DNA from: Escherichia phage SUT_E1520
Sequence record: OQ885479
Reading direction: 5' to 3' (one strand)
DNA length: 64,000 nt
Positions 1,778 through 38,706 of the stretch are shown one piece after another; within the stretch, counting starts at the first letter, position 1, and each line of letters starts with the position of its first letter. The notes under the pieces are model-generated. The model worked only from the letters and a program-made list of their open reading frames with translations. It was not told the DNA's origin and searched no databases. The position numbers and the translations under genes are program-made.

Positions 1778-1855
1778 GGTTCTCAAGCTCATATGGTATG
1801 AGCACCCGGCTCATAACCGGAAGGTACGTAGGTTCGAATCCTCGGGGAGCCACCA
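1778..1855 (+). tRNA. tRNA with CAU anticodon (Met or Ile2 type)
   Basis: Manual fold: acceptor with two G-U pairs, D-arm GCTCATATGGTATGAGC, anticodon loop CTCATAA, T-loop GGTTCGAATCC, CCA. Confidence 0.55.
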
Positions 1856-3579: not shown

Positions 3580-3654
3580 GCACCTTTAGCTGAGATGGAT
3601 TAGCGCTTGCCTGAAGAGCTTGAGAGGTTCGTTCGATACGAACAGGGTGCACCA
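3580..3654 (+). tRNA. tRNA, probable Phe (GAA); unusual T-arm GTTCG-TTCGATA-CGAAC
   Basis: Acceptor GCACCTT/AGGGTGC, loop CTGAAGA, CCA; anticodon stem imperfect. Confidence 0.5.
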
Positions 3655-3656
3655 AA

Positions 3657-3944
3657 TTGAGGGAGCTGCTGATGCATCCTGAAAACTTCTTTATTTACTG
3701 CGCGGATAAGTTGCTGAAACGTAGAATTAACAAAGTCTATCATTATCGTGCTAGTCAACAGCCTTATGTATACGCTTTTGACGGTGATCACATTCCATTA
3801 GAACAATTATCCTGTGATTACATGATATTGAAGAACTTTGACGAGACAAAGATCTCAAGCGTTCATAATCGACAGAATCCCTTAACGTGGAAATATAAGA
3901 AGAAAAAGAAAGGCATCAAATTTTTAAAAAATGTAGTTGCTTAG
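3657..3944 (+). CDS. hypothetical protein (TTG start per track; first ATG at 3672)
   Basis: ORF track; starts immediately after the tRNA. Confidence 0.4.
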   Translation: MRELLMHPENFFIYCADKLLKRRINKVYHYRASQQPYVYAFDGDHIPLEQLSCDYMILKNFDETKISSVHNRQNPLTWKYKKKKKGIKFLKNVVA

Positions 3945-3965
3945 TTTCCAAAAGTTCTGTATAAT
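3937..3965 (+). promoter_or_regulatory. T5-type early promoter
   Basis: TTGCTT-N17-TATAAT followed by the conserved ATAAATTGAACTGGAGAAG leader. Confidence 0.6.
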
Positions 3966-4012
3966 AATTACATAAATTGAACTGGAGAAGCAACATGACA
4001 GAACAAGATAAA

Positions 4013-4088
4013 TCGACCGTTGGCTGAATGGCTTAGGCGAAGGATTGCAAATCCTTTTTATGTGAGTTCAAATCTCATGCGGTCGTCC
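4013..4088 (+). tRNA. tRNA-Cys (GCA)
   Basis: Acceptor CGACCGT/GCGGTCG, anticodon arm AAGGA-TTGCAAA-TCCTT, T-loop GTTCAAATC, CCA. Confidence 0.7.
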
Positions 4089-4230
4089 AATTTGCTGAAA
4101 GAGTTGTTAAATCAATTCAGGCACGCGTAGGAACACTGTCTCCGTAATTGAAAGATGAGGCACGGTTTGGAGAGGTATGCCGCTACACGCTACGGTGCTA
4201 ACTCCGTCTAGGTGAAAATCCTAGTCAGCA
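4089..4230 (+). ncRNA. structured non-coding segment (about 140 nt); T-arm-like hairpin with a non-canonical TGAAAAT loop
   Basis: No ORF; closing helix TTGCTGA / TCAGCAA; CTAGG-TGAAAAT-CCTAG hairpin; does not fold as a standard tRNA. Confidence 0.3.
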
Positions 4231-4241
4231 ATATAAATTTA

Positions 4242-4324
4242 GGGTCGTTAGCCAAGCGGTTTGGCGGTGGACTGTTAATCCATGTCGAAAGACAACGTAG
4301 GTTCGAATCCTACACGGCCCGCCA
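4242..4324 (+). tRNA. tRNA, anticodon GUU (Asn type) with an unusually long 13-nt variable region
   Basis: Acceptor GGGTCGT/ACGGCCC, loop CTGTTAA, T-arm GTAGGTTCGAATCCTAC, CCA. Confidence 0.55.
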
Positions 4325-4426
4325 AATTCTGTGTAGAGTTAAGTAAACCGGTAGCCAACCAGCTATCATTGCTGACATCGAATTCAGTCACAGATACCAT
4401 TTTCATTAATAACTGAGGAAACAAGC

Positions 4427-4612
4427 ATGTCCAAGAATGTAATTGCACAGCTAGAAGTTCATCGTGATAGCACTATCAACAATATTGAAGTTGAGAAGAA
4501 ATACATCGAAGAACTTAAACATGATATACTAGTAAGTCTCAACCGTCTTAATGTACGAAAAAAGTTTCTTAAAGAACTTAATGCAGCTATTGAAAAACTC
4601 AAAGCTGAGTAA
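4427..4612 (+). CDS. hypothetical protein (coiled-coil-like)
   Basis: ORF track; SD GAGGAAACAAGC. Confidence 0.5.
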   Translation: MSKNVIAQLEVHRDSTINNIEVEKKYIEELKHDILVSLNRLNVRKKFLKELNAAIEKLKAE

Positions 4613-4621
4613 ATGAATTAT

Positions 4622-4699
4622 GCGACCGGGGCTGGCTTGGTAATGGTACTCCCCTGTCACGGGAGGGAATGTGGGTTCAAATCCCATCGGTCGCGCCAA
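4622..4699 (+). tRNA. tRNA-Asp (GUC)
   Basis: Acceptor GCGACCG/CGGTCGC, anticodon arm CTCCC-CTGTCAC-GGGAG, T-loop GGTTCAAATCC, CCA. Confidence 0.75.
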
Positions 4700-4724
4700 A
4701 TTAAACTAGTACGAGAAATATGCT

Positions 4725-5072
4725 ATGATTAATGCTAAAGAAGAATTGTTACTTGCCTTAAAGAATATTAATTCTGAAGTTAAGTGTATTAAGATAGAAT
4801 TCGGTTATTATGGGGACAAAGAAGTTTGGGTGTTACCCGTAGGTTATACAGAAAAAGATATTGAAGATTTTCTAAATAATCTAGACTTTAAATATGATTC
4901 TGGTTTCGGTGGGCAATTGCTTTATGGTAACGTGTGGTTTACTGATGGAACTTGGTTAGAACGTGGTGAATACGACGGTTCTGAATGGTGGGAATATAAG
5001 GCTACACCAGCAATCCCAGAAGAATGCCGAACAATTAAGGGTGAAGTAGATAATACTTTACGGTTAAACTAA
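4725..5072 (+). CDS. hypothetical protein
   Basis: ORF track. Confidence 0.55.
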   Translation: MINAKEELLLALKNINSEVKCIKIEFGYYGDKEVWVLPVGYTEKDIEDFLNNLDFKYDSGFGGQLLYGNVWFTDGTWLERGEYDGSEWWEYKATPAIPEECRTIKGEVDNTLRLN

Positions 5073-5079
5073 TAAAATT

Positions 5080-5182
5080 TCAGTGCAGAACACGGAGCTA
5101 GCAATTCGGAAGTGCTGACTCATGATAAGCTGCCTATGTACTTGCGAAGCGGTCGTGTCCAAGACTCGGACTCTTGCACTGA
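5080..5182 (+). ncRNA. structured non-coding element 1 of 3 in tandem (about 100 nt, long closing helix)
   Basis: No ORF; CAGTGCAGA pairs with TCTTGCACTG across about 90 nt. Confidence 0.3.
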
Positions 5183-5203
5183 AAACAATCAAACATTCTA
5201 GCG

Positions 5204-5316
5204 TGGTTGATGGGGAAACCAGCTTGGCGAGGGCAGAAGCTCGTTCGATTCGAGTGAAAGAATGGTTCTCGTAAGTCCGCACAAGTGATAACAGGTTCGA
5301 GTCCTGTCTAGAATGA
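5204..5316 (+). ncRNA. tRNA-like structured element 2 of 3 (about 112 nt): 8-bp acceptor-like helix, D-arm-like and canonical T-arm, no standard anticodon arm
   Basis: CATTCTAG / CTAGAATG closing helix; TGGTT-GATGGGGAA-ACCA; ACAGG-TTCGAGT-CCTGT. Confidence 0.35.
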
Positions 5317-5327
5317 CACTATAAAGT

Positions 5328-5438
5328 TTACTTATTATGTAGGTTCCGATAGATCGGCGGGTCTATTCTGGCACTTAAGAGAGGTCTCGCAAACTTCTTT
5401 GTCAGCCGTGGGGTTGGTAGCCTCCAGGTGGCCTACAC
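5328..5438 (+). ncRNA. structured non-coding element 3 of 3 (about 110 nt)
   Basis: TACTTATTATGTAGG pairs with CCTACACAATAAGTA; no ORF. Confidence 0.3.
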
Positions 5439-5464
5439 AATAAGTAAATTTATTAAAAATTCAT

Positions 5465-5493
5465 TTGCTATTATGCTTAATTCTCTGTATAAT
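5465..5493 (+). promoter_or_regulatory. T5-type early promoter
   Basis: TTGCTA-N17-TATAAT; leader ATAAAGTGTTGAGAAGG. Confidence 0.6.
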
Positions 5494-5525
5494 ATACCTT
5501 ATAAAGTGTTGAGAAGGAAAGCAAA

Positions 5526-5723
5526 ATGAAAAAAGTTTTACTGCTGTCTGTATTCCTACTTACTGGTTGTTTTAAACTTGACTCAACCATTAATAAAGAG
5601 TATGAATTTGCTAAAAATTTCTGTGGCGGAGAGAGTAATATAAAGAATTTCTACATATATAGTACAATTCCTAGTACCGTTTATTGTGTAGACGGACGAA
5701 TTATTAATATTCCTCCACAATAA
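5526..5723 (+). CDS. putative lipoprotein (signal peptide with lipobox LTGC)
   Basis: ORF track; N-terminus MKKVLLLSVFLLTGC. Confidence 0.5.
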   Translation: MKKVLLLSVFLLTGCFKLDSTINKEYEFAKNFCGGESNIKNFYIYSTIPSTVYCVDGRIINIPPQ

Positions 5724-5732
5724 AAGAATTAA

Positions 5733-5808
5733 CAGTGCGTAGCGCAGTTGGTAGCGTGGGAGCCTTGGATGCTTCGGGTCGCAGGTTCGAGTCCTGCCGC
5801 ACTGACCA
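5733..5808 (+). tRNA. tRNA-Pro (UGG)
   Basis: Acceptor CAGTGCG/CGCACTG, D-arm GCGCAGTTGGTAGCGT, loop CTTGGAT, T-arm GCAGGTTCGAGTCCTGC, CCA. Confidence 0.7.
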
Positions 5809-5815
5809 AACAATT

Positions 5816-5892
5816 GCGGGTTAGATCTCTGGTAGAGATCGCTAGTCTCATAAGCTAGAAAGAGGTAGGTTCGATTCCTGCACCCGCTTCCA
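5816..5892 (+). tRNA. tRNA with CAU anticodon (Met or Ile2 type)
   Basis: Anticodon arm CTAGT-CTCATAA-GCTAG, T-loop GGTTCGATTCC, CCA; first acceptor pair imperfect. Confidence 0.55.
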
Positions 5893-5912
5893 TTTTAATA
5901 GAGGATTTCGAA

Positions 5913-6080
5913 ATGAAAGTATTTCGATTAGTAGTAAGTGACAAACGGTTAGGTAAGAATACATCAAAATCCTTACTCGCTCATTATGGTAAAAATTGGG
6001 ATGAAGTAATGGTAGAGTTTAGTACTAATCACCCTTACTTAAAAGTCCACTCTATTAAGGAAGTGTATAATGGTTACTAA
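5913..6080 (+). CDS. hypothetical small protein (55 aa)
   Basis: ATG after SD AGAGGA; below the track cutoff. Confidence 0.35.
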   Translation: MKVFRLVVSDKRLGKNTSKSLLAHYGKNWDEVMVEFSTNHPYLKVHSIKEVYNGY

Positions 6081-6081
6081 T

Positions 6082-6160
6082 AGATCGCTAGCTCAATAGG
6101 TTTAGTAGCATCCGACTTTTAATCGGAAGGTTCTGGGTTCGAGTCCCAGGCGATCTACCA
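6082..6160 (+). tRNA. tRNA-Lys (UUU)
   Basis: Acceptor AGATCGC/GCGATCT, anticodon arm TCCGA-CTTTTAA-TCGGA, T-arm CTGGGTTCGAGTCCCAG, CCA. Confidence 0.7.
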
Positions 6161-6178
6161 ATTTCAAGAAAAACGCAG

Positions 6179-6207
6179 TTGCTTAATGCTTAATTTCTTG
6201 TTATAAT
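6179..6207 (+). promoter_or_regulatory. T5-type early promoter driving a non-coding leader and downstream tRNAs
   Basis: TTGCTT-N17-TATAAT; leader ATAAATTGATGAGGAG but no ORF follows. Confidence 0.6.
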
Positions 6208-6214
6208 ATTTATA

Positions 6215-6445
6215 TAAATTGATGAGGAGAAATCCTCATCATAGTTCACTAAGGTATTAGCTCGACCTAGGACTGGCTGCCAAAAAGCACGATCCCTACG
6301 ATTCGGGAGAAGTTCTAGATTAGTCCACTAGGTTCAGCGGCAACTGAATAGTGTATCGGGTTTGCGAGATGACGCGGTTCCTTCCGCTTGAAGCGAAGGT
6401 GCTGTAGTTACGCCGAGCTAATAGCCTTAGTAAACTAAAGAATTT
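6215..6445 (+). ncRNA. promoter-proximal structured non-coding RNA candidate (about 230 nt) upstream of tRNA-Ala
   Basis: No ORF or tRNA fold; 9-bp long-range helix ATTAGCTCG (6256-6264) with CGAGCTAAT (6414-6422). Confidence 0.35.
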
Positions 6446-6718: not shown

Positions 6719-6809
6719 GGAAGAGCAAATCGAATTGGCGACGAAAACCGCTTGGAAAGTGGCTGACTGGTAAAACGGCTTGAGAGTTCAAATCTCTCCT
6801 CTTCCGCCA
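6719..6809 (+). tRNA. tRNA-Ser (GGA), class II
   Basis: Acceptor GGAAGAG/CTCTTCC, loop TTGGAAA, long variable arm, T-arm GAGAGTTCAAATCTCTC, CCA. Confidence 0.6.
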
Positions 6810-6821
6810 AACAATTTATAT

Positions 6822-6916
6822 GGTAGGTCAATCCAATGGCTGGCGCTGGACTCCGACTTGAAATCGGTTGATCGTAGTGATACGGTGTAAGGGTTCGATC
6901 CCCTTACCTACCTCCA
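6822..6916 (+). tRNA. tRNA-Ser (UGA), class II with a very long variable arm (95 nt total)
   Basis: Acceptor GGTAGGT/ACCTACC, anticodon arm CCGA-CTTGAAA-TCGG, T-arm AAGGGTTCGATCCCCTT, CCA. Confidence 0.6.
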
Positions 6917-7062
6917 AATCCTGAAGTATGCCGGAATCGGTAGACGGGGCTGCCTAAAAGGTTTATAGGGAACATCCACTCCCTGCAACATACCTCATAA
7001 AGCGGCTGAGATAAATGGTCTATCTCGTGAAGGTTCAAGTCCTTCTGCTTCTTGATACACCA
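6917..7062 (+). ncRNA. non-coding structured segment containing a T-arm-like hairpin (GAAGG-TTCAAGT-CCTTC); not resolved as a tRNA
   Basis: No ORF; several local hairpins, including GAGATA-AATGGTC-TATCTC. Confidence 0.25.
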
Positions 7063-7282
7063 ATGGCTCAAAGTGTAACGGTGCTATTTGATGCGCTTAG
7101 TAAGACTTCCCCGACATGCGTTCGGGAGTAAGCTGCTAAGACTAGAGTAGAAGAGTTTCTGAGAGCCGCCACAATTGAAAATTCGTACTCGTCTTGAGCT
7201 GCGTGCAATAGGAGATAACTTGATTAGTATTCTAGAACATGCTAATTGAGGAAGGTTTCGCTAACCCTGCGAGTTTTCAATT
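7063..7282 (+). ncRNA. non-coding structured segment with a 13-bp long-range helix
   Basis: CCACAATTGAAAA (7169-7181) pairs with TTTTCAATTGTGG (7273-7285); no ORF, no canonical T-loop. Confidence 0.3.
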
Positions 7283-30548: not shown

Positions 30549-31043
30549 TTAAACTACCTGTAAGGATTCAACATTGAAACATCGTTTTAATTCATCATGT
30601 AAAACAGCGTATTCCTCCCATCGGGTATTATCAGGAATATAAACAAGCTGTTTTAATCGATTTGCGTATATTACCGCTTTATTATCAATTATTTCGACGC
30701 CACCATATTTAATAATTAATTTCATGACGGAATTAATAGGATCGCCGCCGTTTACATATGTGCCGGATTTACTTAATTGATAATGATAAAGGCCAGCATA
30801 TACGTTTTCATTTTCATACCATTCGCCAGTTTCTTCGTCTTCATAGCCATCGCTACCAAAACGAGAAGCATTATCAATAGCCATTTCATGAGCGAAAGCG
30901 TCCAGATCCGTACCAGCAGGAACAAAGTATTCCTCGGTATTCCCTTCCCCGCAATAGCCAGTATGACAATCGACTAAAATGATCATATCATGTTTAGCCG
31001 TGCTCACTTCCCCTAGCGAGAAGCCGTATTTTTCCTCAGCCAT
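30549..31043 (-). CDS. hypothetical protein (164 aa)
   Basis: ORF track; SD AGGAGG upstream. Confidence 0.55.
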   Translation of the reverse strand: MAEEKYGFSLGEVSTAKHDMIILVDCHTGYCGEGNTEEYFVPAGTDLDAFAHEMAIDNASRFGSDGYEDEETGEWYENENVYAGLYHYQLSKSGTYVNGGDPINSVMKLIIKYGGVEIIDNKAVIYANRLKQLVYIPDNTRWEEYAVLHDELKRCFNVESLQVV

Positions 31044-31108
31044 TTATTAGCCTCCTATTAATTAACAAGGGAGTAGTAAAGCGGGGAAATAATCCCCGCT
31101 AAATATTA

Positions 31109-32119
31109 TTACTCGCTTTCGGTGTTAGTGGTAAAAGTAGAAATATCAATACCTTTCACCATTTCATCAATCATTTCAGCGATGTTAAAACTTTGCACCA
31201 TTTCCAGCATTGCCGCTTCCATAGCCGCCCCCGCTACCGCTTTCGCCTTTTGGTTAGTCGGTGCGTACTGGTCAACCGCTACACTCAGCAGGTTAGCGAT
31301 CACTACACGACCAATAGGTGTATCGATATAACCTTTGATCATGAATGGTGCTTTTTTAGCCGCTACTTTCGTAATTTGAGTTAATGCAATTTTACCCGCC
31401 TCCAGTTTTGCAGCATTTACAACAGCGGATTTATTGGCGGCAACGATGTTAGCAATCTTGGTCATGGTGTTTTTTCCTTTGTTTTCAGTAGTTTGAGTGT
31501 TAACGCTTTGAGTGTTAGAATTTACAGCATGGTTTTCTACGCTGTCAATAATCTGATCTTCATCTTTCCAGAAAGAAAAACCAGCGCTTTCTATATCCCC
31601 ATCATAAATATATGGGTATAGCTCCCGTGGTAACAAAAAATTACCGTCGCCATCAAAAGCCATTATACCGGTATATTGAGATCCGTCGTTATCCGGCTTA
31701 TGCCATCCAGCGGGTAAATACTTCCAGATAACATCTAAAAATCCCTCAATGCTAGAAAGTCCATTTATCAGATCAAGTCCAATAAGCTCAAAACTATTTA
31801 TATTAAATGATTGACGGCCTGAATTGCTATGATACGCAACAATATTATTACCCTGCGCAACAATAAAATCGGTATCCGGCCCCGCTCCCCTGCCTGTAAA
31901 GATATGGCAATCCCGATTATATAAAACTAGCGTTGCCCCTTGTCTATATAAGGGTAGAAAACTATCCATATCATAAGCGTCATAATCATCAAAAAAGTTT
32001 TGATGAATAGTTTCAATCTTGTTAATAAAATGTTTAATGCTGGTTGACTTGCTACCGTCTAGCAGGTTGCGCAATGCACCCTTTAATACGGTGGCATTAT
32101 CAGGTTTATACAGCCTCAT
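31109..32119 (-). CDS. hypothetical protein (336 aa), first gene of the minus-strand operon
   Basis: ORF track; SD GAGGAGG upstream. Confidence 0.6.
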   Translation of the reverse strand: MRLYKPDNATVLKGALRNLLDGSKSTSIKHFINKIETIHQNFFDDYDAYDMDSFLPLYRQGATLVLYNRDCHIFTGRGAGPDTDFIVAQGNNIVAYHSNSGRQSFNINSFELIGLDLINGLSSIEGFLDVIWKYLPAGWHKPDNDGSQYTGIMAFDGDGNFLLPRELYPYIYDGDIESAGFSFWKDEDQIIDSVENHAVNSNTQSVNTQTTENKGKNTMTKIANIVAANKSAVVNAAKLEAGKIALTQITKVAAKKAPFMIKGYIDTPIGRVVIANLLSVAVDQYAPTNQKAKAVAGAAMEAAMLEMVQSFNIAEMIDEMVKGIDISTFTTNTESE

Positions 32120-32385
32120 TTGTTAGGCCTCCTCGTTAATCGGTGAGTGAATGATAAAGGTAAATTTCTAGCATAGGCAAATATTATTTTACCTTTTTAT
32201 TTTCCTTGCCTAGCGCCTATTTTTATGATAACCGCGCAGCGGTGCAATAAAGAGCAAACCACGGCGAAGCCACCAGGCCGACGCATTGAGGCTTTACTTT
32301 AATATTACCTTACAGCGTTTAGCTCGTTAGAATGCGATTTAAGCCGCTTAAAATTGATTGCAGTTGTTAACACTACCTTTTTACC

Positions 32386-32500
32386 CTGTATAAATATACA
32401 GTAGGATAACCTGTGGATAAGTCTGTGTAAAAGTCCTTATATCGCCGCCTATCGTGTCAAGTCAAAAAGTGCTGTGGATAACTTTGTGTATAACTTAAAT
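32386..32500 (+). repeat. right arm of the inverted repeat, with LexA-like box and two TGTGGATAA DnaA boxes
   Basis: LexA-like box at 32386-32401; DnaA boxes at 32412-32420 and 32473-32481. Confidence 0.6.
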
Positions 32501-32830
32501 GATAGTGGTTCTCACTTAGCTAGATGATTTCTTATAGTTATTATTTCTCATTAATTTATATGTATATTATATATCATGAAATAGTTAGTTGGCTAATGAG
32601 ATTTTTCCGTGATTAATAGTCTGCTAATAATTCAGGTCGTTACAATCCACCAGCATGATTATCATTCTAGCAATTATTAGTCTGCTATCTTTCCGATGCA
32701 TACTAACAAATAAAAGTCAATTAATTTATTTCATAAAATAAGTAGTTATCCACTGGAAAATAAAAGTCAAGTGGATAACTAGGAAAATTTCATTTTTGCT
32801 TTTGGGGATAAGTTATCAACAAGGCTAGAA
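32500..32830 (+). other. AT-rich region with further DnaA-box-like 9-mers; origin-like or host-factor binding region
   Basis: TTATCCACT near 32746, GTGGATAAC near 32771, TTATCAACA near 32813; very AT-rich 32520-32720. Confidence 0.4.
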
Positions 32831-33225
32831 TGCGCCTAAAACGCTCCAGAACGCAATAAAGTTTTTAGCCATCCCATCATAAGGGGATAAGCCGTTTATC
32901 GTTACCACGAGCTTTTTAGATTTTGTCAAGTAGGGCAAAGCAAATATAAATGAAAAAATTACTTGCCTATTTGCTTTATTTTGTGGTATTCGCGCGCCCG
33001 TTTCTTTTAATTTTAGGCCGTCGCCGCACGGTGTCCGGTGAGTTTTACCTTTACATTTCTTTACAAAAATAAGGTTGCGCCATTTTCGGGAATCCCCTAT
33101 TATTTATCTCGTAGGGCGGCAATGACGAACTACACGGCGGGAAGTTTACCGCCACGCTCTTTAAAAATTGGGTACATCTTAAAGCCTATCGGCGGTAAAC
33201 TTATTCATTATAAGGAATCGACGAT

Positions 33226-33429
33226 ATGAAACAAACGCTTTTGATCACTGGCAAGCCTATTAAGGCACTAGATAGCAAAACAAAAAATTTGTTGACAGTA
33301 GCTCAAAGATCAGTAAGATATAGATTCACGCAGTACAAGAAAGGTCGCCAGCAAGGTCTGGAAATGATCTGGCGAAATATTATGATTGACCTAAAAGAAA
33401 ATCATAAAAAATTGCAAAAAATTGTTTGA
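33226..33429 (+). CDS. hypothetical basic protein (67 aa), flanked by a 25-bp inverted repeat
   Basis: ORF track; inverted repeat arms at 33169-33193 and 33437-33461. Confidence 0.3.
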   Translation: MKQTLLITGKPIKALDSKTKNLLTVAQRSVRYRFTQYKKGRQQGLEMIWRNIMIDLKENHKKLQKIV

Positions 33430-33659
33430 CAACCTAGCCGATAGGTTTTAAGATGTACCCAGTTCGATAAGAGCGATAACTTGATAAAATTTGACGGTCG
33501 GTGCTTACCATAATGCATCCCGCCCCCTAACGGGATATAGCGGCCTACGTGGAGTTCTTTAAAATTGATTATATTGGCGAGCGGATTGTTACTTATTACC
33601 TGCTGTTACTTTCTAGCAGGTAATGCGGAACAATCCCCAAATAACTAGGAGTTTATATT

Positions 33660-33911
33660 ATGCAAAACGTTATTACCGCGCCGAAAGTTGGTCAATCCGT
33701 CTTCATTCCTTTCGTTACTAAAACGGATGAATTAACCGGAAAGGCCGAACGTATTAAAGGTGCGGCGCTTATGCCGTTCGATACAATCGACGCGGTATAC
33801 GCTGAAAATGAACGTAGTAACAACGGCAAGCCCGTTTTTAGCGTTCGCGTTAAATCCGGCGATGTTGTAAAGGTTGTTCAACGCAACGAAAAATGGGAAG
33901 CTGTATTGTAA
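33660..33911 (+). CDS. pre-early protein (hypothetical)
   Basis: ORF track; SD TAGGAG; 10-bp-stem hairpin upstream at 33595-33624. Confidence 0.5.
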   Translation: MQNVITAPKVGQSVFIPFVTKTDELTGKAERIKGAALMPFDTIDAVYAENERSNNGKPVFSVRVKSGDVVKVVQRNEKWEAVL

Positions 33912-34007
33912 ATTAGTGTTAACTTTATATCCCCTTATTTCAGGGGGATATAACGATTAACATTAAGTTAATCTAATCCCTTAAATTAAACTAATAGGAG
34001 TTACATC

Positions 34008-34415
34008 ATGACTAACGCTAAAACCGCAAAATTCGCATGGAATGAAGAAAACACTCAGAAAGCTGTTTCCATGTATCAACAGTTAATTAATGAAAACGGT
34101 TTAGATTTCGCAAATAGCGACGGTTTAAAAGAGATTGCAAAAGCAGTGGGCGCGGCTTCTCCCGTATCCGTTCGGTCAAAATTGACCAGCGCAAAAGCAT
34201 ATCAAAAAAGCGATAAGCCTCGCAAAGTTGGCGGCGGTAGTTCAATCCGCAAAGCTCATTATGTACGCGTTATTGCAAAACACGCTATCGATTCCGGCAT
34301 TATCAAAGATGCCGATGATCTGGCAAGCCTTGAAAGTGCAAAACTTGAAACGCTGGACGCAGTAGCGCAATTGTTAGGCGTTGCCGATGAAGTAAAACAA
34401 GCCGCAGGCGAATAA
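34008..34415 (+). CDS. A2-like pre-early protein (putative DNA-binding)
   Basis: 135 aa, immediately upstream of A1; assignment by position and size only. Confidence 0.4.
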   Translation: MTNAKTAKFAWNEENTQKAVSMYQQLINENGLDFANSDGLKEIAKAVGAASPVSVRSKLTSAKAYQKSDKPRKVGGGSSIRKAHYVRVIAKHAIDSGIIKDADDLASLESAKLETLDAVAQLLGVADEVKQAAGE

Positions 34416-34507
34416 TAGTTATACCTTGCCCCCTTTTTTAGTGAGGGGGCAATAATATAACTGTTTAGCGATAGTTATTTTCTTCCCTTAAATCAGGAGT
34501 TTTTAAA

Positions 34508-34705
34508 ATGATCTTTTATCCTACTGAATCATTAATTCTAGGCTTGTTTATTATGGCGGCCTCGTTATTGTTCGCTTATTTTCAAAATGATTTAGATTCG
34601 TATTATTTTAAACGTAAATCTAAGTTAGCAAAGCGTTTAGGTCTTATTTGTTTTATTGCCGCCGTTGCTTGTGGTGTTAGTTCTAGCCTTATGCCTTTAA
34701 ATTAA
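34508..34705 (+). CDS. small membrane protein
   Basis: ORF track; two hydrophobic segments. Confidence 0.45.
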   Translation: MIFYPTESLILGLFIMAASLLFAYFQNDLDSYYFKRKSKLAKRLGLICFIAAVACGVSSSLMPLN

Positions 34706-34795
34706 TGTTGCAAATTATAACGCCTATTATTCGAGGCGTTATATTTGGCAATATTGCCGTTATTAATCTAATCCCTTTAATGGAGTTTTATTATC

Positions 34796-36460
34796 ATGAT
34801 TATTTCCGCAGAAAAACAAACCGTTATCCTGAAAATGGCCGCTGACTTTAATTTCTATGGTAAACGTCTGCGCGCTACTAAACTGGAAGTCTGCGACGAT
34901 ATATCAAAAGCGGTCTACGATACAACGAAACACTCCACCGCCATTTGTGATTGGTTGGAAGCAAATAAACCAGCGAAACCGAAAGCGGCGAAAGTAGCAA
35001 AAGCCATTAAAAACGACGAGCGCCCAGAAGCGGCGGGGGTTGTTTCTAGCACGGTTGAACAGTGGGAAGTAAAACAAGGCAAACGCTTTATTATTACATC
35101 GATTCAGAATAATACTTTCCCGCATAAAAACTTTTTGGCCTCACTTGAACAATATGCCAAATTTATCGGCGCTGATTTGCTCGTTTCTAAGTATATTTAT
35201 AATAAAAACGGTTTTCAAAATGGGGAAGGTGCGGATGGAATCAAATATGATTCCGCGTTTGATAAATATATTTGCAGCAAAAACGTGTTTTTAAATAACC
35301 GCCGTTTCGCTTTCATGGCTGAAATTAATGTTTTGCCAACCGCAGATTATCCGCTTTCTGGATTCGCAGAAACTGCAACGGCTTTAAATATTGAAGGTCT
35401 GGCAATTGGTCACGCTAAAATCACCGCTGAAAGTGTGCCAGCTTTAAAAGGTGAAGTAGTGCGCCGTATGTATTCAACCGGAACGGCAACGCTCAAAAAC
35501 TACATTCAGCAGAAAGCAGGACAAAAGGCCGAGGCGCTGCATAACTTCGGTGCGCTTATTGTTGAGTTCGACGACGACGGGGAATTTTTTGTACGCCAGC
35601 TTGAAACGATGGACGAAAGCGGGGTGTTTTATGATCTGAACGTTTGCGCTACTCCTGCCGGATGCTATGAAACATCGGGGCATGTTTTAGGCTTGCAGTA
35701 TGGCGATATTCACGCCGAAAAATTAGATGATGATTGTGCCGTTGCGTCATGGGCTGGCGAGAATAGTTTGCTTGATATTCTTAAACCAAAATATCAGCTT
35801 ATTCATGACGTGCATGATTTTACATCGCGCAATCATCATAACCGTGCATCCGGTGTATTCCTAGCGAAACAGTATGCCGCCGGACGTGATAAAGTTCTGG
35901 ATGATCTTATCGATACGGGGCGCGTGCTGGAATCAATGGAACGTGATTTTAGTCAAACAATCATCGTAGAATCGAATCACGATTTGGCGCTATCCCGCTG
36001 GCTTGATGATCGTAATGCTAACATTAAAGACGATCCCGCCAACGCCGAACTATATCACCGCCTAAATGCTGCAATTTACGCGGCAATCGGTGAGCATGAC
36101 GATACTTTCAACGTGCTAGATTATGCGTTGCGCAAGGTTGCAGGTTGTGAGTTTAACGCCATTTTCCTAACCACTGACCAATCTTTCAAGATTGCAGGTA
36201 TTGAATGCGGCGTACACGGTCACAACGGCATTAACGGCAGCCGTGGCAACCCGAAACAATTTAAGAAATTGGGCAAGTTAAACACGGGGCATACGCATAC
36301 CGCCAGCATTTACGGCGGCGTATACACCGCTGGCGTAGCTGGTAGTCTGGATATGGGTTACAACGTTGGCGCGTCAAGCTGGACGCAGACGCATTTAATT
36401 ACCTATGCAAACGGTCAGCGCACTTTGATTGACTTTAAAAACGGTAAATTCTTTGCGTAA
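34796..36460 (+). CDS. A1: A1-like pre-early protein, calcineurin/Mre11-like metallophosphoesterase (probable DNase)
   Basis: 554 aa; motifs GDIHAE, HDFTSRNHHN and GHTHTAS. Confidence 0.7.
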   Translation: MIISAEKQTVILKMAADFNFYGKRLRATKLEVCDDISKAVYDTTKHSTAICDWLEANKPAKPKAAKVAKAIKNDERPEAAGVVSSTVEQWEVKQGKRFIITSIQNNTFPHKNFLASLEQYAKFIGADLLVSKYIYNKNGFQNGEGADGIKYDSAFDKYICSKNVFLNNRRFAFMAEINVLPTADYPLSGFAETATALNIEGLAIGHAKITAESVPALKGEVVRRMYSTGTATLKNYIQQKAGQKAEALHNFGALIVEFDDDGEFFVRQLETMDESGVFYDLNVCATPAGCYETSGHVLGLQYGDIHAEKLDDDCAVASWAGENSLLDILKPKYQLIHDVHDFTSRNHHNRASGVFLAKQYAAGRDKVLDDLIDTGRVLESMERDFSQTIIVESNHDLALSRWLDDRNANIKDDPANAELYHRLNAAIYAAIGEHDDTFNVLDYALRKVAGCEFNAIFLTTDQSFKIAGIECGVHGHNGINGSRGNPKQFKKLGKLNTGHTHTASIYGGVYTAGVAGSLDMGYNVGASSWTQTHLITYANGQRTLIDFKNGKFFA

Positions 36461-36515
36461 TTAAATTATTTCCCTAGCGGCTTGAAATATAGCCGCTATT
36501 TCAGGAGTCACAAAA

Positions 36516-36773
36516 ATGAAAGTTACATTACCCAAAACACTGGACGAAAAAGTATTCATTTCACCGGATGAAATGGAATCTGATAAAGTTTACAGCTTCG
36601 GGCCTATCCTAGCCGCTAAAACTAATACTGATGGCGTTATTTCCGTAGATTACCGTGATAATGATGTTGTTCCTTTTGATGACGATAGCGCTTTTTATGA
36701 GTGGCTAAGTGATAATAATCTACCCGTAAACGGTGAATTAACGCCGTACCAGATGCAGATTATTATCAAATAA
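36516..36773 (+). CDS. pre-early protein (hypothetical)
   Basis: ORF track. Confidence 0.5.
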   Translation: MKVTLPKTLDEKVFISPDEMESDKVYSFGPILAAKTNTDGVISVDYRDNDVVPFDDDSAFYEWLSDNNLPVNGELTPYQMQIIIK

Positions 36774-36811
36774 TTTAAATCCATTATTAAACTAATTGGG
36801 GTTTTATAAAT

Positions 36812-37204
36812 ATGAAAAAGCAAAATATTCCATTCGATCGCGCTCAGTCTTCCATTGTTCTGGTTTATTCTAATGGTGAACGTTATCACGTCGAGGCGTG
36901 GCACGTTATTGATGAATTGTTAGATTTCAATGATGCGATGCAGGTTACAACATTTGCATATATGCAAGGCAAACTAACAAGCCATATTAAAGCAAAAGGC
37001 GTTTATATTGACACGGTGAAACAAGAAACGATTATCATCGACGCAGTAAAATCCGGCCTAGCCTTTGCAGTTGTCGCGCCTTGCCTCGCTTGCCTTGATG
37101 ATCAGCTAGCGAGCGCAAAGGTATATACCTGCGCGGGTATTCGTTCCCATGTATCAGGTGAGGATATTAGTTTTATTGCTGATGCGTTGGCTTATGGTCT
37201 TTAA
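36812..37204 (+). CDS. pre-early protein (hypothetical)
   Basis: ORF track. Confidence 0.5.
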   Translation: MKKQNIPFDRAQSSIVLVYSNGERYHVEAWHVIDELLDFNDAMQVTTFAYMQGKLTSHIKAKGVYIDTVKQETIIIDAVKSGLAFAVVAPCLACLDDQLASAKVYTCAGIRSHVSGEDISFIADALAYGL

Positions 37205-37283
37205 TAGTTGATTTATTATTACCCGCTTATAAATAGCGGGTAATGCTGGATAAACTAAATCCCTTTAATGGAGAACGTAACAA

Positions 37284-38018
37284 ATGAATAAAGCTATTAT
37301 GAATATTTCCCGTAATTTCCCGCATATTTCCCGCGTCATGATTTGGGATTTAGACGGCACTATCATTAATTCTTTCCATCGTGTAGCGCCTTGCTTTGAT
37401 AGTGAGGGCAATTTAGATTTAAATAAGTATAAAAATGAAGCCTGCAAACATCATTTAATAATGCAAGATACTTTATTGCCATTGGTTGAATATATGCGCC
37501 AATGTATGAATGATGCAAATACTTTAAACATTATTTGCACCGCTCGACTAATGAGCAAGTCGGACTATTATTATTTGCGTAAACAAGGGTTGCGCGGTCG
37601 TGGTGATAGTAATATCCGTGTATTTTCCCGCGATACACTACACAAATATTTTGAAGCTGATAAAGTTAGCGAGATATACCACAGCAAAGACGCCATTTAT
37701 AAATCGTATTATTTTGAATTATTTAAACAATTATATCCAAACGCTGACTTTACAATGATTGACGATCATAAAGGCGTGCTATCAGCGGCGGCATCATACG
37801 GATTTAAAACGCTGGACGCGCAAGCCATTAACGATATTCTATCAATCGGCGTTGCATTGATAGGTGAAACCTTTATCGATGAATCTCTCGATGATGATAA
37901 TGATTATCAGTTCCTAGCTGATCGTTTGAAATTATGTTGGGAAAGTATGACCGAGGAAGAACGCGCAGAATATAGTTGCAGCCCGCAACAATATATTGAG
38001 AAATTAAAAGTTGCGTAA
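37284..38018 (+). CDS. dmp: 5-prime-deoxyribonucleotidase, HAD-superfamily phosphatase
   Basis: 244 aa; HAD motif I DLDGT near the N-terminus and a later DD motif. Confidence 0.7.
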   Translation: MNKAIMNISRNFPHISRVMIWDLDGTIINSFHRVAPCFDSEGNLDLNKYKNEACKHHLIMQDTLLPLVEYMRQCMNDANTLNIICTARLMSKSDYYYLRKQGLRGRGDSNIRVFSRDTLHKYFEADKVSEIYHSKDAIYKSYYFELFKQLYPNADFTMIDDHKGVLSAAASYGFKTLDAQAINDILSIGVALIGETFIDESLDDDNDYQFLADRLKLCWESMTEEERAEYSCSPQQYIEKLKVA

Positions 38019-38032
38019 TAATTAAAGTTGAA

Positions 38033-38069
38033 ATAGTCACGGTGTGTAATGATAACATGCCGTGACTAT
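38033..38069 (+). terminator. stem-loop after dmp (terminator-like)
   Basis: ATAGTCACGG...CCGTGACTAT hairpin. Confidence 0.45.
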
Positions 38070-38082
38070 TAGCTTGCTAAGT

Positions 38083-38100
38083 ACCGGGCGGTAATGAGAC
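38083..38100 (+). promoter_or_regulatory. third copy (one mismatch) of the Fur-box-like palindrome
   Basis: AATGAGACTCATTCTCAT between dmp and the small-membrane-protein operon. Confidence 0.45.
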
Positions 38101-38169
38101 TCATTCTCATCTGGGGAGCCACTGGACACACCTCCATGTGTAATCTTATGAAATTTGACAAAAGTCGAA

Positions 38170-38415
38170 TTAGCGCATAGAAGGGTCATCAAACCTGTGT
38201 TCTGGTCTGAACTCCCGGAATCTCTTCCGCGACGCCCGAGATCCATCCGACCACTCTCGCTCAAACTCCGCACGTTTCTCGTCAAACTTCCGCTCCCTTT
38301 CCGCAATCTCCCGCGTCACTCCCGCAATATATTCCCGATGCTTATTGATTGCCGCAGTCGTCCCGAAAACTCCCGCGAGTATCCCGATAATAAAAGCAAT
38401 TATAATACTAAACAT
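38170..38415 (-). CDS. small membrane protein with a charged C-terminal tail (81 aa)
   Basis: ORF track; last gene of a translationally coupled minus-strand operon. Confidence 0.45.
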   Translation of the reverse strand: MFSIIIAFIIGILAGVFGTTAAINKHREYIAGVTREIAERERKFDEKRAEFEREWSDGSRASRKRFREFRPEHRFDDPSMR

Positions 38416-38602
38416 CTAATTCCCTCTCAATTTGCAGAATACGGGTGCTATCACAACGTTGCAGTAGTACTAGCTTTTCTAGAATAACTTGTTGTTGTTT
38501 TACCTGGGCTTCTAGAGTTTTTAGGCGGAGATACACGATACGAGAGACAATGAGGATTACCCAGACTAATATTACCATTAGTGTAATTGCCACTTCCATC
38601 AT
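38408..38602 (-). CDS. small single-pass membrane protein, paralog family member (64 aa)
   Basis: ORF track; TM helix and C-terminal RILQIERELD-like motif. Confidence 0.45.
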   Translation of the reverse strand: MMEVAITLMVILVWVILIVSRIVYLRLKTLEAQVKQQQVILEKLVLLQRCDSTRILQIERELDV

Positions 38603-38706
38603 TTATGTTTCTCCGATAGTAAGGTTTCGATTCTAGCTAAGTGATTATCTAAGATACATTGCCCAATAATCACAATCCCCAGTAGTGCAATAATTACCCA
38701 TTCCAT
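38599..38706 (-). CDS. small single-pass membrane protein, paralog family member (35 aa)
   Basis: MEWVIIALLG...RIETLLSEKHK; TAATG and ATGATG overlaps with neighbours; below the track cutoff. Confidence 0.35.
   Translation of the reverse strand: MEWVIIALLGIVIIGQCILDNHLARIETLLSEKHK

What the first reader, a model, noticed from the sequence alone, without database searches (positions are those of the whole stretch)
5080..5438. Three tandem structured non-coding elements of about 100-112 nt in the tRNA island that are not tRNAs
Each unit (5080-5182, 5204-5316, 5328-5438) has no ORF and is closed by a 9-15 bp long-range helix. The middle one carries an 8-bp acceptor-like helix, a D-arm-like hairpin and a perfect T-arm (ACAGG-TTCGAGT-CCTGT) but no standard anticodon arm. 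They sit downstream of an early promoter among genuine tRNAs, so they are probably transcribed and processed with them. They could be tRNA-derived regulatory RNAs, decoys for tRNA-targeting host nucleases, or processing elements.
Basis: seen in the sequence. Interest (0 to 1): 0.7.

Follow-up and report, generated by a model that had tools for sequence, protein, structure and literature searches.

The report
Known T5 stable RNAs, one tRNA-scaffolded
Two of the three elements are the long-annotated phage T5 stable RNAs RNA2 (tRNA-like) and RNAIV, whose function is still unknown, and RNA2 proves to belong to a widespread, phage-only family of tRNAs whose anticodon loop is replaced by a conserved ~50-nt module.

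Summary
The window is a T5-like phage (Tequintavirus) tRNA region.

- **Unit 2** is RNA2, window 5194-5318. The T5 (AY543070) and BF23 (AJ604530) records annotate it as a "tRNA-like stable RNA with unknown functions".
- **Unit 3** is RNAIV, mature 5337-5439, annotated as a "stable RNA with unknown functions".
- **Unit 1** (5078-5184) carries no RNA annotation in the T5, BF23 or sampled phage records.

All three are real, but they are not repeats of one another.

**RNA2.** It is a full tRNA cloverleaf whose 7-nt anticodon loop is replaced by a 55-nt insert. The insert has a GGGY/RUCC helix, an internal T-arm-like hairpin, and the motifs GAAAGnAUGG, CGUAA and GCA. I found 44 distinct relatives: other Demerecviridae, T4-like and jumbo phages, and metagenomes. 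None of the 12 exact-pattern hits in 100,044 bacterial and archaeal genomes was a member. Their tRNA bodies differ completely and covary, while the insert is conserved. This looks like a natural "tRNA scaffold" carrying a functional module.

**RNAIV.** It is a covariation-supported four-way junction closed by an 18-20-bp helix. The annotated mature ends lie inside that helix, which suggests RNase III excision.

**Unit 1.** It has a 10-bp closing helix and is about 8-fold more conserved than the adjacent ORF. Its inner fold is unsupported.

Function is unknown for all three. A T5 deletion mutant lacking them is viable. A decoy or sponge role is plausible but untested.

The parts
5078..5184 (+). 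Unit 1: unannotated structured element. The closing helix is 5078-5087 / 5175-5184, extendable by G5088-C5173 and A5089-U5172 across a bulged U5174. It also has a small 3' hairpin, GUCC-AAGACUC-GGAC.
   Evidence: One search shows the 10-bp perfect inverted repeat. One search gives nucleotide diversity 0.008, against 0.067 in the adjacent ORF. In one search it is present in 219 phage records, all >=90% identical, and none of the 60 listed records annotates an RNA there. One search shows a ~60-nt cousin that shares the 3' CGGACUCU and sits just upstream of RNA2 in My1, L009, L070 and L026, with a compensatory change in its closing helix. The inner fold is not supported.
5194..5318 (+). RNA2: the T5/BF23 'tRNA-like stable RNA', 125 nt. 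It is a tRNA cloverleaf scaffold plus an insert.
   Evidence: map it onto AY543070 rna2 and AJ604530 rna2 at 96.8-100% identity. Covariance model R1 scores it 83.2 bits.
5194..5201 (+). Acceptor-like stem, 5' strand. It pairs with 5308-5315 and is followed by the 3' tail ACA at 5316-5318.
   Evidence: for the helix. In some searches all 7 acceptor pairs show double changes across the family.
5204..5221 (+). D arm: UGGUU-GAUGGGGA-AACCA.
   Evidence: In some searches, 4 of 4 modelled pairs covary.
5222..5226 (+). Anticodon-stem equivalent, 5' strand (GCUUG). It pairs with 5282-5286 (CAAGU).
   Evidence: In some searches, 5 of 5 pairs covary. The unguided RNAalifold run also recovers this helix.
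5227..5281 (+). A 55-nt insert that replaces the anticodon loop. In order it contains:
- linker GCGA;
- P2 GGGC (5231-5234), which pairs with GUCC (5275-5278);
- AGAA;
- an internal T-arm-like hairpin, GCUCG-UUCGAUU-CGAGU (5239-5255);
- GAAAGAAUGG, then UUCU;
- CGUAA (5270-5274);
- GCA (5279-5281).
   Evidence: Searches show it conserved in 44 distinct family members. The internal hairpin covaries in 4 of 5 pairs. The Y:R pair is U-A or C-G in 28 of 44 sequences.
5291..5307 (+). T arm: ACAGG-UUCGAGU-CCUGU.
5324..5451 (+). RNAIV precursor domain. Closing helix arms are 5324-5343 and 5432-5451.
   Evidence: 20 nt, 90% complementary. (z = -4.3 with the helix included). In some searches, My1 has an 18-bp helix of different sequence, 17 of 18 paired. 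Covariance model R2 scores the window copy 141.5 bits.
5337..5439 (+). Mature RNAIV, 103 nt per the T5/BF23 annotation. It is a four-way junction:
- hairpin A, 5348-5355 / 5360-5367, loop GGCG;
- arm B, outer stem 5368-5372 / 5401-5405 and inner stem 5378-5385 / 5393-5400, loop CUCGCAA at 5386-5392;
- hairpin C, 5410-5413 / 5421-5424.
   Evidence: for the mapping. for covariation: 22 of 47 pairs show double changes. One search shows the GGCG and CUCGCA loops kept in the divergent L009 copy.

Best explanation
The three elements are non-coding RNAs cut out of the polycistronic T5 tRNA-operon transcript. They are not tRNAs and not genes for proteins.

**Unit 2 = RNA2.** This is a complete tRNA body (acceptor stem, D arm, 5-bp anticodon stem, 4-nt variable loop, T arm) in which the anticodon loop is replaced by a 55-nt structured module.
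- Inferred from tRNA biology: the tRNA body acts as a scaffold. It should give RNase P 5' cleavage, which fits because the annotated 5' end is the first acceptor base. It should also give 3' trimming, CCA repair and nuclease resistance.
- Inferred from the conservation pattern: the conserved module is the working part, and it presumably binds a factor conserved across very different hosts.
- Leading but unproven idea: a non-decoding tRNA mimic that titrates or blocks a tRNA-binding or tRNA-targeting factor.

**Unit 3 = RNAIV.** This is a four-way-junction RNA. Its 18-20-bp closing helix is probably cut by RNase III (inferred), because the annotated mature ends lie inside the helix.

**Unit 1.** This is a highly conserved hairpin-closed element just 5' of RNA2. 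Most likely it is a leader or processing or stability element, or a further small RNA.

**Shown:** identity with the annotated T5 RNAs, the structures, the family distribution, and dispensability.
**Inferred:** the processing enzymes and any function.
For: **Identity.**
- The T5 and BF23 records annotate rna2 and rnaIV at the homologous positions.
- The coordinates transfer exactly.

**RNA2 cloverleaf.**
- 94.8% of cells are paired, against 29-47% in slid controls, and 25 of 30 pairs show double changes.
- The result holds on 44 distinct sequences.
- Unguided MAFFT plus RNAalifold recovers the anticodon stem, P2, the inner hairpin and the T arm.
- Model R1 also matches ordinary tRNAs end to end at 20-30 bits.
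- The Rfam tRNA model matches two family members end to end, with a 51-nt or 55-nt insertion in the anticodon loop; in L097 it falls directly after C32-U33.

**RNA2 family distribution.**
- 47 viral loci carry the pattern, including 204-363 kb contigs and a T4-like Acinetobacter phage.
- 39 of 40 metagenome loci are confirmed by the model.
- None of the 12 pattern hits in 100,044 prokaryotic genomes is confirmed.
- The discriminator base and the acceptor sequences vary.

**RNAIV.**
- Covariation supports the fold.
- Homologs occur in Epseptimavirus, My1 and L009.
- The mature ends 5337 and 5439 fall inside the helix 5324-5343 / 5432-5451.

**Context.**
- There is no terminator or promoter between tRNA-Asp and P13a.

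**Unit 1.**
- Searches give the closing helix, the conservation and the short cousin.

**Dispensability.**
- T5Mos carries the deletion 30661-38625, which removes all three elements, and it is viable (PMC11464382).
Against: - I have no expression data of my own. 'Stable RNA' rests on the wording of the GenBank annotation, and I could not retrieve the primary papers.
- Several conserved motifs of the insert were fixed by my search patterns, so their invariance is partly circular.
- My structural alignments were built by choosing the best pairings in small windows, which biases them towards the structure.
- A short helix P3 inside the insert is not consistently supported.
- The annotated RNAIV 3' end gives a 1-nt 3' overhang, not the 2-nt overhang expected of RNase III.
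- Unit 1 has no covariation, an ill-defined inner fold (MFE frequency 0.003), and no stable RNA annotated for it.
- No binding partner or phenotype is known, and no conserved neighbouring protein was found.
Confidence: 0.8

Rival explanations
1. RNA2 is an intron-containing or otherwise decoding tRNA. On this reading the insert is spliced out, or tolerated, and the RNA works in translation.
For: - The tRNA body is complete.
- The Rfam tRNA model accepts two relatives with the insert treated as an insertion in the anticodon loop.
- ARAGORN in intron mode of 19 relatives as intron-bearing tRNAs.
- CGUAAAUCCGC resembles the 3' half of tRNA-Tyr, Asn or Cys anticodon arms (reading).
Against: - ARAGORN in intron mode finds nothing in window 5000-5500, and it assigns 6 different identities to the relatives.
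- The insert is conserved while the tRNA bodies and discriminators vary, which is the opposite of what an intron predicts.
- The base at the U33-equivalent position, just 5' of CGUAA, is not conserved.
- The annotated stable species is the full 125 nt.
- From established knowledge: bacterial tRNA introns are group I introns of more than 200 nt.
Confidence: 0.05
2. The elements are decaying tRNA pseudogenes or spacer remnants with no function of their own.
For: - The T5 tRNA region holds several degenerate tRNA-like RNAs: RNA1 and RNA3.
- The region is dispensable in the laboratory.
- Gene content here varies between relatives: tRNA-Gly, HNH endonuclease genes and extra elements come and go.
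Against: - Compensatory changes maintain every helix of RNA2 and RNAIV across phage families.
- The RNA2 insert is about 78-86% identical over 63-99 nt between T5 and the Klebsiella, Acinetobacter T4-like and L034 copies.
- Diversity in unit 1 and RNA2 is about 8-12 times lower than in the adjacent ORF.
Confidence: 0.05
3. They are purely cis-acting processing or stability signals for the operon (RNase III or RNase E entry sites, 3' end protectors of upstream mRNA). On this reading they are not trans-acting RNAs.
For: - Long closing helices flank units 1 and 3.
- Unit 1 follows an ORF in T5, and no stable RNA is annotated for it.
- From established knowledge, cited in PMC4810235: RNase III takes part in T4 tRNA maturation.
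Against: - RNA2 and RNAIV are recorded as stable species.
- Conserved loops (GGCG and CUCGCA in RNAIV, and the RNA2 insert) go beyond what a cleavage site needs.
- A family member stands alone in L034, where ARAGORN finds no tRNA in the 10-kb locus.
- Unit 1 follows a tRNA or a tRNA-like RNA instead of an ORF in some phages.
Confidence: 0.1

Closest known systems
Phage T5 / BF23 RNA2 and RNAIV (misc_RNA features in AY543070 and AJ604530)
   Same: The same loci. Units 2 and 3 are 95-100% identical to them and map base for base.
   Different: There is no difference for units 2 and 3. Unit 1 is not annotated in those records. The window phage lacks the tRNA-Gly(GCC) and the ~147-nt element that BF23 carries between RNA2 and RNAIV.
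Phage T4 species 1 and species 2 stable RNAs (rnaC, rnaD)
   Same: They are stable RNAs of unknown function in a phage tRNA cluster. By eye, rnaC has a T arm and tRNA-like ends.
   Different: They are not homologous. Model R1 gives rnaC only 19 bits, the level of any tRNA, and no match to the insert. Model R2 finds nothing in the T4 region.
Engineered 'tRNA scaffold' for recombinant RNA expression (my own knowledge: Ponchon and Dardel, 2007)
   Same: The architecture is the same. A foreign structured RNA replaces the anticodon loop of a tRNA, so that the cell processes and stabilises it as a tRNA.
   Different: That design is artificial. Here the arrangement is natural and conserved, and its cargo is unknown.
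Bacterial Y RNA / YrlA (Rfam RF02553; PMC4201824)
   Same: Non-coding tRNA mimics with D-arm and T-arm equivalents. Some are phage-encoded.
   Different: The topology differs: in Y RNAs the 5' and 3' ends form the Ro-binding stem, not the acceptor stem. Rfam gives no YrlA match in the window at E <= 10. Only weak sub-threshold hits appear in related loci, and they lie elsewhere.
Canonical and intron-bearing tRNAs (Rfam RF00005)
   Same: Acceptor stem, D arm, anticodon stem and T arm are present, with tRNA-like conserved bases. Two relatives pass or approach the Rfam tRNA threshold.
   Different: A 55-nt conserved insert replaces the 7-nt anticodon loop. There is no anticodon and no prediction in the window.

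Membership tests
T5 RNA2 (annotated tRNA-like stable RNA) | Sequence identity and same position as rna2 of AY543070 and AJ604530 | tested here: met
   96.8% identical to T5 and 96.8% to BF23 over 124-125 nt, with the same neighbours.
T5 RNAIV (annotated stable RNA) | Sequence identity and same position as rnaIV of AY543070 and AJ604530 | tested here: met
   97.6% identical to T5 and 96.0% to BF23 over 124 nt. It lies directly upstream of promoter P13a.
T5 RNA2 / RNAIV | Accumulates as a discrete stable RNA in infected cells | not testable with these tools
   This rests only on the wording of the GenBank annotations. The primary papers were not found.
Canonical tRNA | Cloverleaf with acceptor stem, D arm and T arm | tested here: met
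   For unit 2 only. Model R1 also matches genuine tRNAs end to end.
Canonical tRNA | 7-nt anticodon loop with U33 and an anticodon, recognised by tRNA predictors | tested here: not met
   The loop is 55 nt. ARAGORN and Rfam give no call in 5080-5438.
Intron-containing tRNA | A predictor resolves an intron and a consistent anticodon, and the mature RNA lacks the insert | tested here: not met
   ARAGORN with -i0,80 finds nothing in the window and gives inconsistent identities in relatives. The annotated stable RNA is 125 nt. Splicing itself cannot be tested here.
tmRNA | tRNA-like domain plus a tag-peptide reading frame | tested here: not met
   ARAGORN finds no tmRNA. Rfam finds no tmRNA in the window.
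Y RNA / YrlA | Match to RF02553, with a Ro-binding stem formed by the 5' and 3' ends | tested here: not met
   No hit at E <= 10 in 4950-5550. In RNA2 the ends form an acceptor-type stem.
RNase III-processed RNA (unit 3) | Roughly two-turn double helix with the mature ends inside it and staggered | tested here: inconclusive
   The helix is 18-20 bp with one mismatch. The annotated ends 5337 and 5439 lie inside it, but they give a 1-nt overhang rather than 2 nt. No enzymology is available.
Rho-independent terminator | GC-rich hairpin followed by a U run | tested here: not met
   No + strand terminator-like site was found in 3600-6200.
T4 rnaC / rnaD | Homology to T4 species 1 or species 2 RNAs | tested here: not met
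   Model R1 gives 19 bits on rnaC, tRNA level only. Model R2 gives no hit.

The most novel reading that the evidence does not exclude
RNA2 is the founding, long-overlooked member of a widespread, phage-specific class of 'tRNA-scaffolded' RNAs. In this class a conserved ~50-nt module sits where the anticodon should be. The module contains a T-loop hairpin, a GUAA-containing internal loop and a segment that resembles the 3' half of a tRNA anticodon arm. It would act in trans as a decoy or inhibitor of a conserved host tRNA-binding or tRNA-cleaving factor, for example an anticodon nuclease of an anti-phage system. That would make it an RNA-based counter-defence that rides on the tRNA processing pathway. 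RNAIV and unit 1 would be further members of the same accessory RNA cassette.
Probability: 0.25. Interest if true: 0.8.

Novelty: already known. Interest (0 to 1): 0.5.

Why it matters
Phage tRNA clusters have recently been recast as counter-defence islands. T5 tRNA-Lys neutralises PARIS, and T5 tRNA-Tyr protects against the PtuAB toxin of retron Eco7 (PMC11464382).

The non-tRNA stable RNAs in the same cluster are annotated only as having unknown functions, and I found no study of them in the literature I could search. This work shows three things that make the question tractable:

- RNA2 is not a T5 oddity. It is one of at least 44 distinct covarying relatives in phages as different as Demerecviridae, T4-like phages and jumbo phages of several hundred kb.
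- None of the 12 exact-pattern hits in 100,044 bacterial and archaeal genomes was a member, and the family is absent from Rfam 15.
- It has a defined conserved module that can be mutated, pulled down or solved structurally.

It would also be a natural precedent for the tRNA-scaffold design used in RNA biotechnology.

Tried and rejected
- **tRNA, tmRNA and Rfam calls.** ARAGORN default and intron mode, Rfam at gathering threshold and Rfam at E <= 10 all gave nothing in 5080-5438. The only hit was a chance snoR145 match at E = 9.8.
- **Repeat family.** The three units share no similarity with each other and have no paralogs in the window.
- **Homology to T4 rnaC/rnaD or to T5 RNAI/RNAIII.** Rejected using models R1 and R2.
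- **Conserved partner protein next to RNA2-family members.** Clustering the neighbouring ORFs found one ~210-285-aa family in 5 of 23 loci, sometimes in several copies per locus. I did not identify what it is. No family was shared across the loci generally.
- **Bacterial or prophage copies.** The genome-contig scan gave 12 hits, and none was confirmed by the model. I estimated that about this many would occur by chance.
- **Helix P3 inside the insert** (5' WG-NNN pairing with the bases before CGUAA). The register shifts between lineages, so it is not established.
- **Aminoacylation identity.** G3:U70 occurs in only 2 of 44 members, there is no long variable arm, and the discriminator varies. 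No conserved identity emerges.
- **Resemblances I noted by eye.** These were the insert versus the 16S rRNA 3' region, 5S loop E, and the Ro-binding site of Y RNAs. I did not test them and treat them as probable coincidence.
- **Literature.** Searches for T5 stable RNAs or tRNA-like RNAs returned nothing relevant.
- **Inner fold of unit 1.** The MFE and centroid structures disagree, and the variants are too few to decide.

Full report
**What the window is.** The region is the tRNA gene cluster of a T5-like phage (Tequintavirus). A blastn search with window 5060-5460 hits 468 phage records. These include 100% identical T5-like phages, phage T5 itself and BF23. ARAGORN finds 20 tRNAs on the + strand but nothing between tRNA-Asp (4622-4698) and tRNA-Pro (5733-5808). 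Rfam finds nothing there at gathering threshold, or at E <= 10 apart from a chance snoRNA hit.

**The observation.** The sequence and an inverted-repeat search confirm three hairpin-closed elements:
- 5078-5087 / 5175-5184, 10 bp, perfect;
- 5194-5201 / 5308-5315, 8 bp, perfect;
- 5324-5343 / 5432-5451, 20 nt, 90% complementary.

However, unit 2 begins at 5194 and unit 3 is longer than stated. The T arm ACAGG-UUCGAGU-CCUGU (5291-5307) and the D-like hairpin (5204-5221) are as described.

Single-sequence folding is not remarkable, with z between -1.3 and -1.8. The exception is unit 3 with its full closing helix, z = -4.3. The three units share no similarity with each other or with anything else in the window.

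**Two of the three are already annotated.** The T5 genome record AY543070 and the BF23 tRNA-region record AJ604530 carry two misc_RNA features here:
- rna2, "RNA2, tRNA-like stable RNA with unknown functions", 125 nt;
- rnaIV, "RNAIV, stable RNA with unknown functions", 103 nt.

Both lie between ORF T5.067 and promoter P13a. Pairwise alignment and BLAST transfer them to window 5194-5318 and 5337-5439. The consensus scan finds P13a at 5465-5493. It finds no + strand terminator in 3600-6200, so the elements belong to the transcription unit that also carries tRNA-Cys, tRNA-Asn and tRNA-Asp.

Unit 1 lies in the 121-nt stretch that neither record annotates. It is present in 219 phage records. None of the 60 I listed annotates an RNA there; a few carry automatic "hypothetical protein" calls. 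I could not find the primary papers, so "stable RNA" rests on the annotators' wording.

**RNA2 is a tRNA body with its anticodon loop replaced.** In order, RNA2 consists of:
- an acceptor stem (8 bp in T5) and the tail ACA;
- a D arm;
- a 5-bp anticodon-stem equivalent, GCUUG / CAAGU;
- a 4-nt variable loop;
- a T arm.

The anticodon-stem equivalent closes 55 nt instead of 7. The insert reads: linker, GGGC, AGAA, hairpin GCUCG-UUCGAUU-CGAGU (a second T-arm look-alike), GAAAGAAUGG-UUCU, CGUAA, GUCC, GCA. GGGC pairs with GUCC.

**Relatives outside T5.** BLAST had already shown the core in Pectobacterium phage My1, Klebsiella phage KPN4 and the T4-like Acinetobacter phage 133. In phage 133 it sits unannotated between tRNA-Gly and tRNA-Cys.
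- A pattern scan of IMG/VR returned 47 loci, including contigs of 204-363 kb.
- A second pattern in metagenomes returned 40 loci, one on a 570-kb contig.
- A covariance model built from 20 diverse members confirmed 39 of those 40 metagenome loci and gave 44 distinct sequences.
- The same pattern hit only 12 places in 100,044 bacterial and archaeal genomes. None was confirmed by the model.
- The family therefore looks phage-specific. It has no Rfam 15 model.

**Evidence for the RNA2 structure.**
- On my structure-guided alignment, 94.8% of cells form standard pairs, against 29-47% when partners are slid. 25 of 30 pairs have changes on both sides.
- On the model-fitted alignment of 44 sequences the figure is 94.1%.
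- Both alignments lean towards the structure. As a check, RNAalifold on a plain MAFFT alignment independently recovered the anticodon stem, GGGY/RUCC, the inner hairpin and the T arm, with 13 covarying pairs.
- The model also matches ordinary tRNAs end to end at 20-30 bits.
- Rfam's tRNA model matches two family members end to end, at 50.6 and 27.3 bits. It treats the module as a 51-nt or 55-nt insertion in the anticodon loop; in L097 the insertion comes directly after C32-U33.

The tRNA bodies, acceptor sequences and discriminator bases differ completely between lineages, while the insert is conserved. That pattern is what one expects of a scaffold carrying a functional cargo. It is the opposite of an intron. 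One caveat: several insert motifs were fixed by my search patterns, so their invariance is partly circular. The BLAST-found members (78-86% identical over 63-99 nt) argue that the conservation is real.

**Is RNA2 a tRNA with an intron?**
- ARAGORN with introns allowed finds nothing in window 5000-5500. In relatives it proposes six different identities by carving the insert arbitrarily.
- The base at the U33-equivalent position, just 5' of CGUAA, is not conserved.
- The annotated stable species is the full 125 nt.
- I therefore rate a decoding role as unlikely.
- There is no conserved aminoacylation signature. G3:U70 occurs in 2 of 44 members, there is no long variable arm, and the discriminator varies.

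**RNAIV.** Homologs from Tequintavirus, Epseptimavirus and My1 align into a four-way junction:
- a long closing helix;
- hairpin A with loop GGCG;
- arm B, an outer and an inner stem with a 7-nt loop CUCGCAA;
- hairpin C with a 7-nt loop UUNNUAG.

96.9% of cells are paired, against 38-51% in slid controls, and 22 of 47 pairs have double changes. My1 keeps an 18-bp closing helix (17 of 18 paired) whose inner 11 bp differ entirely in sequence. A divergent copy in L009 keeps the loops GGCG and CUCGCA. The window has a single copy, and T5 RNAI and RNAIII are not detected by the model.

The annotated mature ends, 5337 and 5439, lie inside the helix 5324-5343 / 5432-5451. That points to a double-strand-specific cut, so RNase III is the obvious candidate. 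This is an inference, and the annotated overhang is 1 nt rather than 2.

**Unit 1.**
- The closing helix is solid, but the inner fold is not. The MFE structure has frequency 0.003, and the MFE and centroid structures disagree.
- Among six distinct T5-like sequences that cover the whole region, nucleotide diversity is 0.008 in unit 1 and 0.005 in RNA2. It is 0.067 in the adjacent ORF and 0.060 in the promoter region. Unit 1 is therefore under strong constraint.
- In My1, L009, L070 and L026, a ~60-nt hairpin sits in the same place just upstream of RNA2. It shares the 3' motif CGGACUCU and shows a compensatory change in its closing helix.
- In other phages, unit 1 follows a tRNA or another tRNA-like RNA instead of an ORF. 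In still others, RNA2 follows tRNA-Lys directly.
- I regard unit 1 as a conserved leader, processing element or additional small RNA. I cannot say which.

**Function.** Nothing here establishes a function. T5Mos carries the deletion 30661-38625, which removes all three elements, and it is viable. [quoted passage not shown] These are therefore accessory elements. I found no conserved neighbouring protein.

RNA2 has a complete tRNA body but no anticodon. Its module is conserved in phages of very different hosts, and phage tRNA clusters are now known to counter tRNA-targeting defences. For these reasons I think a non-decoding tRNA mimic that titrates or blocks a conserved tRNA-binding or tRNA-cleaving factor is the most attractive idea. 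I give it about 0.25. The resemblance of CGUAAAUCCGC to the 3' half of tRNA-Tyr, Asn or Cys anticodon arms (T5 tRNA-Tyr: CUGUAAAUCUGC) is a lead, not evidence.

**Verdict.**
- The objects are already known as T5 RNA2 and RNAIV, plus one unannotated neighbour.
- What appears to be new is the family-level picture of RNA2 as a widespread, phage-only tRNA-scaffolded module, and the covariation-supported structures of RNA2 and RNAIV.

Noticed in passing
window 6719-6809 and 6822-6916: Two tRNA-Ser genes are not called by ARAGORN or by Rfam at gathering threshold. They are annotated in the identical phage T5_ev212, and T5 annotates the homologs as tRNA-Ser(GGA) and tRNA-Ser(UGA). By eye the sequences look like class II tRNAs.
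   Followed up: partly
window 1778-1852: Rfam calls a tRNA here at 40.3 bits that ARAGORN misses. By position it is probably the T5 tRNA-Ile2(CAU) homolog.
   Followed up: no
window ~4327-4400, ~6255-6426 and ~6922-7282: By position these are the other T5 stable RNAs of unknown function: RNA3, RNA2H, and RNA1/RNAI/RNAIII. RNA1 looks like a class II-type tRNA-like RNA with extra sequence. None matches models R1 or R2 beyond the level of an ordinary tRNA.
   Followed up: partly
L001 (BF23) 2765-2985; also L009 and Epseptimavirus loci L068-L072: Many relatives carry tRNA-Gly(GCC) plus a conserved ~147-nt non-coding stretch between RNA2 and RNAIV. Both are absent from the window. Some Salmonella phages have an HNH endonuclease gene there instead.
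   Followed up: no
L113 ~160-247 (TrudiGerster), L071, L005 1714-1799 (My1): Another unannotated tRNA-like RNA of ~90 nt ends in ...ACUCCACCA. It sits directly upstream of unit 1 in some Epseptimaviruses and downstream of tRNA-Gly in My1.
   Followed up: no
L006 (Klebsiella phage KPN4) ~1612-1750 and ~2105-2175: A ~130-nt element has an acceptor-like helix (AGUAUCG / CGAUACU), a T arm and a long internal insertion. Further on, a hairpin-closed element ends in CGACUCUAGAACAG, which resembles the 3' end of unit 1.
   Followed up: no
window 5120-5125: The self-complementary hexamer UCAUGA lies inside unit 1. In phage TrudiGerster three adjacent substitutions turn the site into another self-complementary hexamer, CGCGCG. 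A loop-loop dimerisation site is possible. This is unexplained.
   Followed up: no
L034 3709-3828; L091 4062-4179: One RNA2-family member stands alone between ORFs on a 164-kb contig, where ARAGORN calls no tRNA in the 10-kb locus. Another lies on a 570-kb contig.
   Followed up: partly
L030 (Shigella phage SHSML-45) and L006 (KPN4), RNA2 3' ends: The KPN4 copy ends in UCCA and the SHSML-45 copy is followed by ACCA, that is, a genome-encoded CCA. T5 has ACA and would need CCA repair.
   Followed up: no
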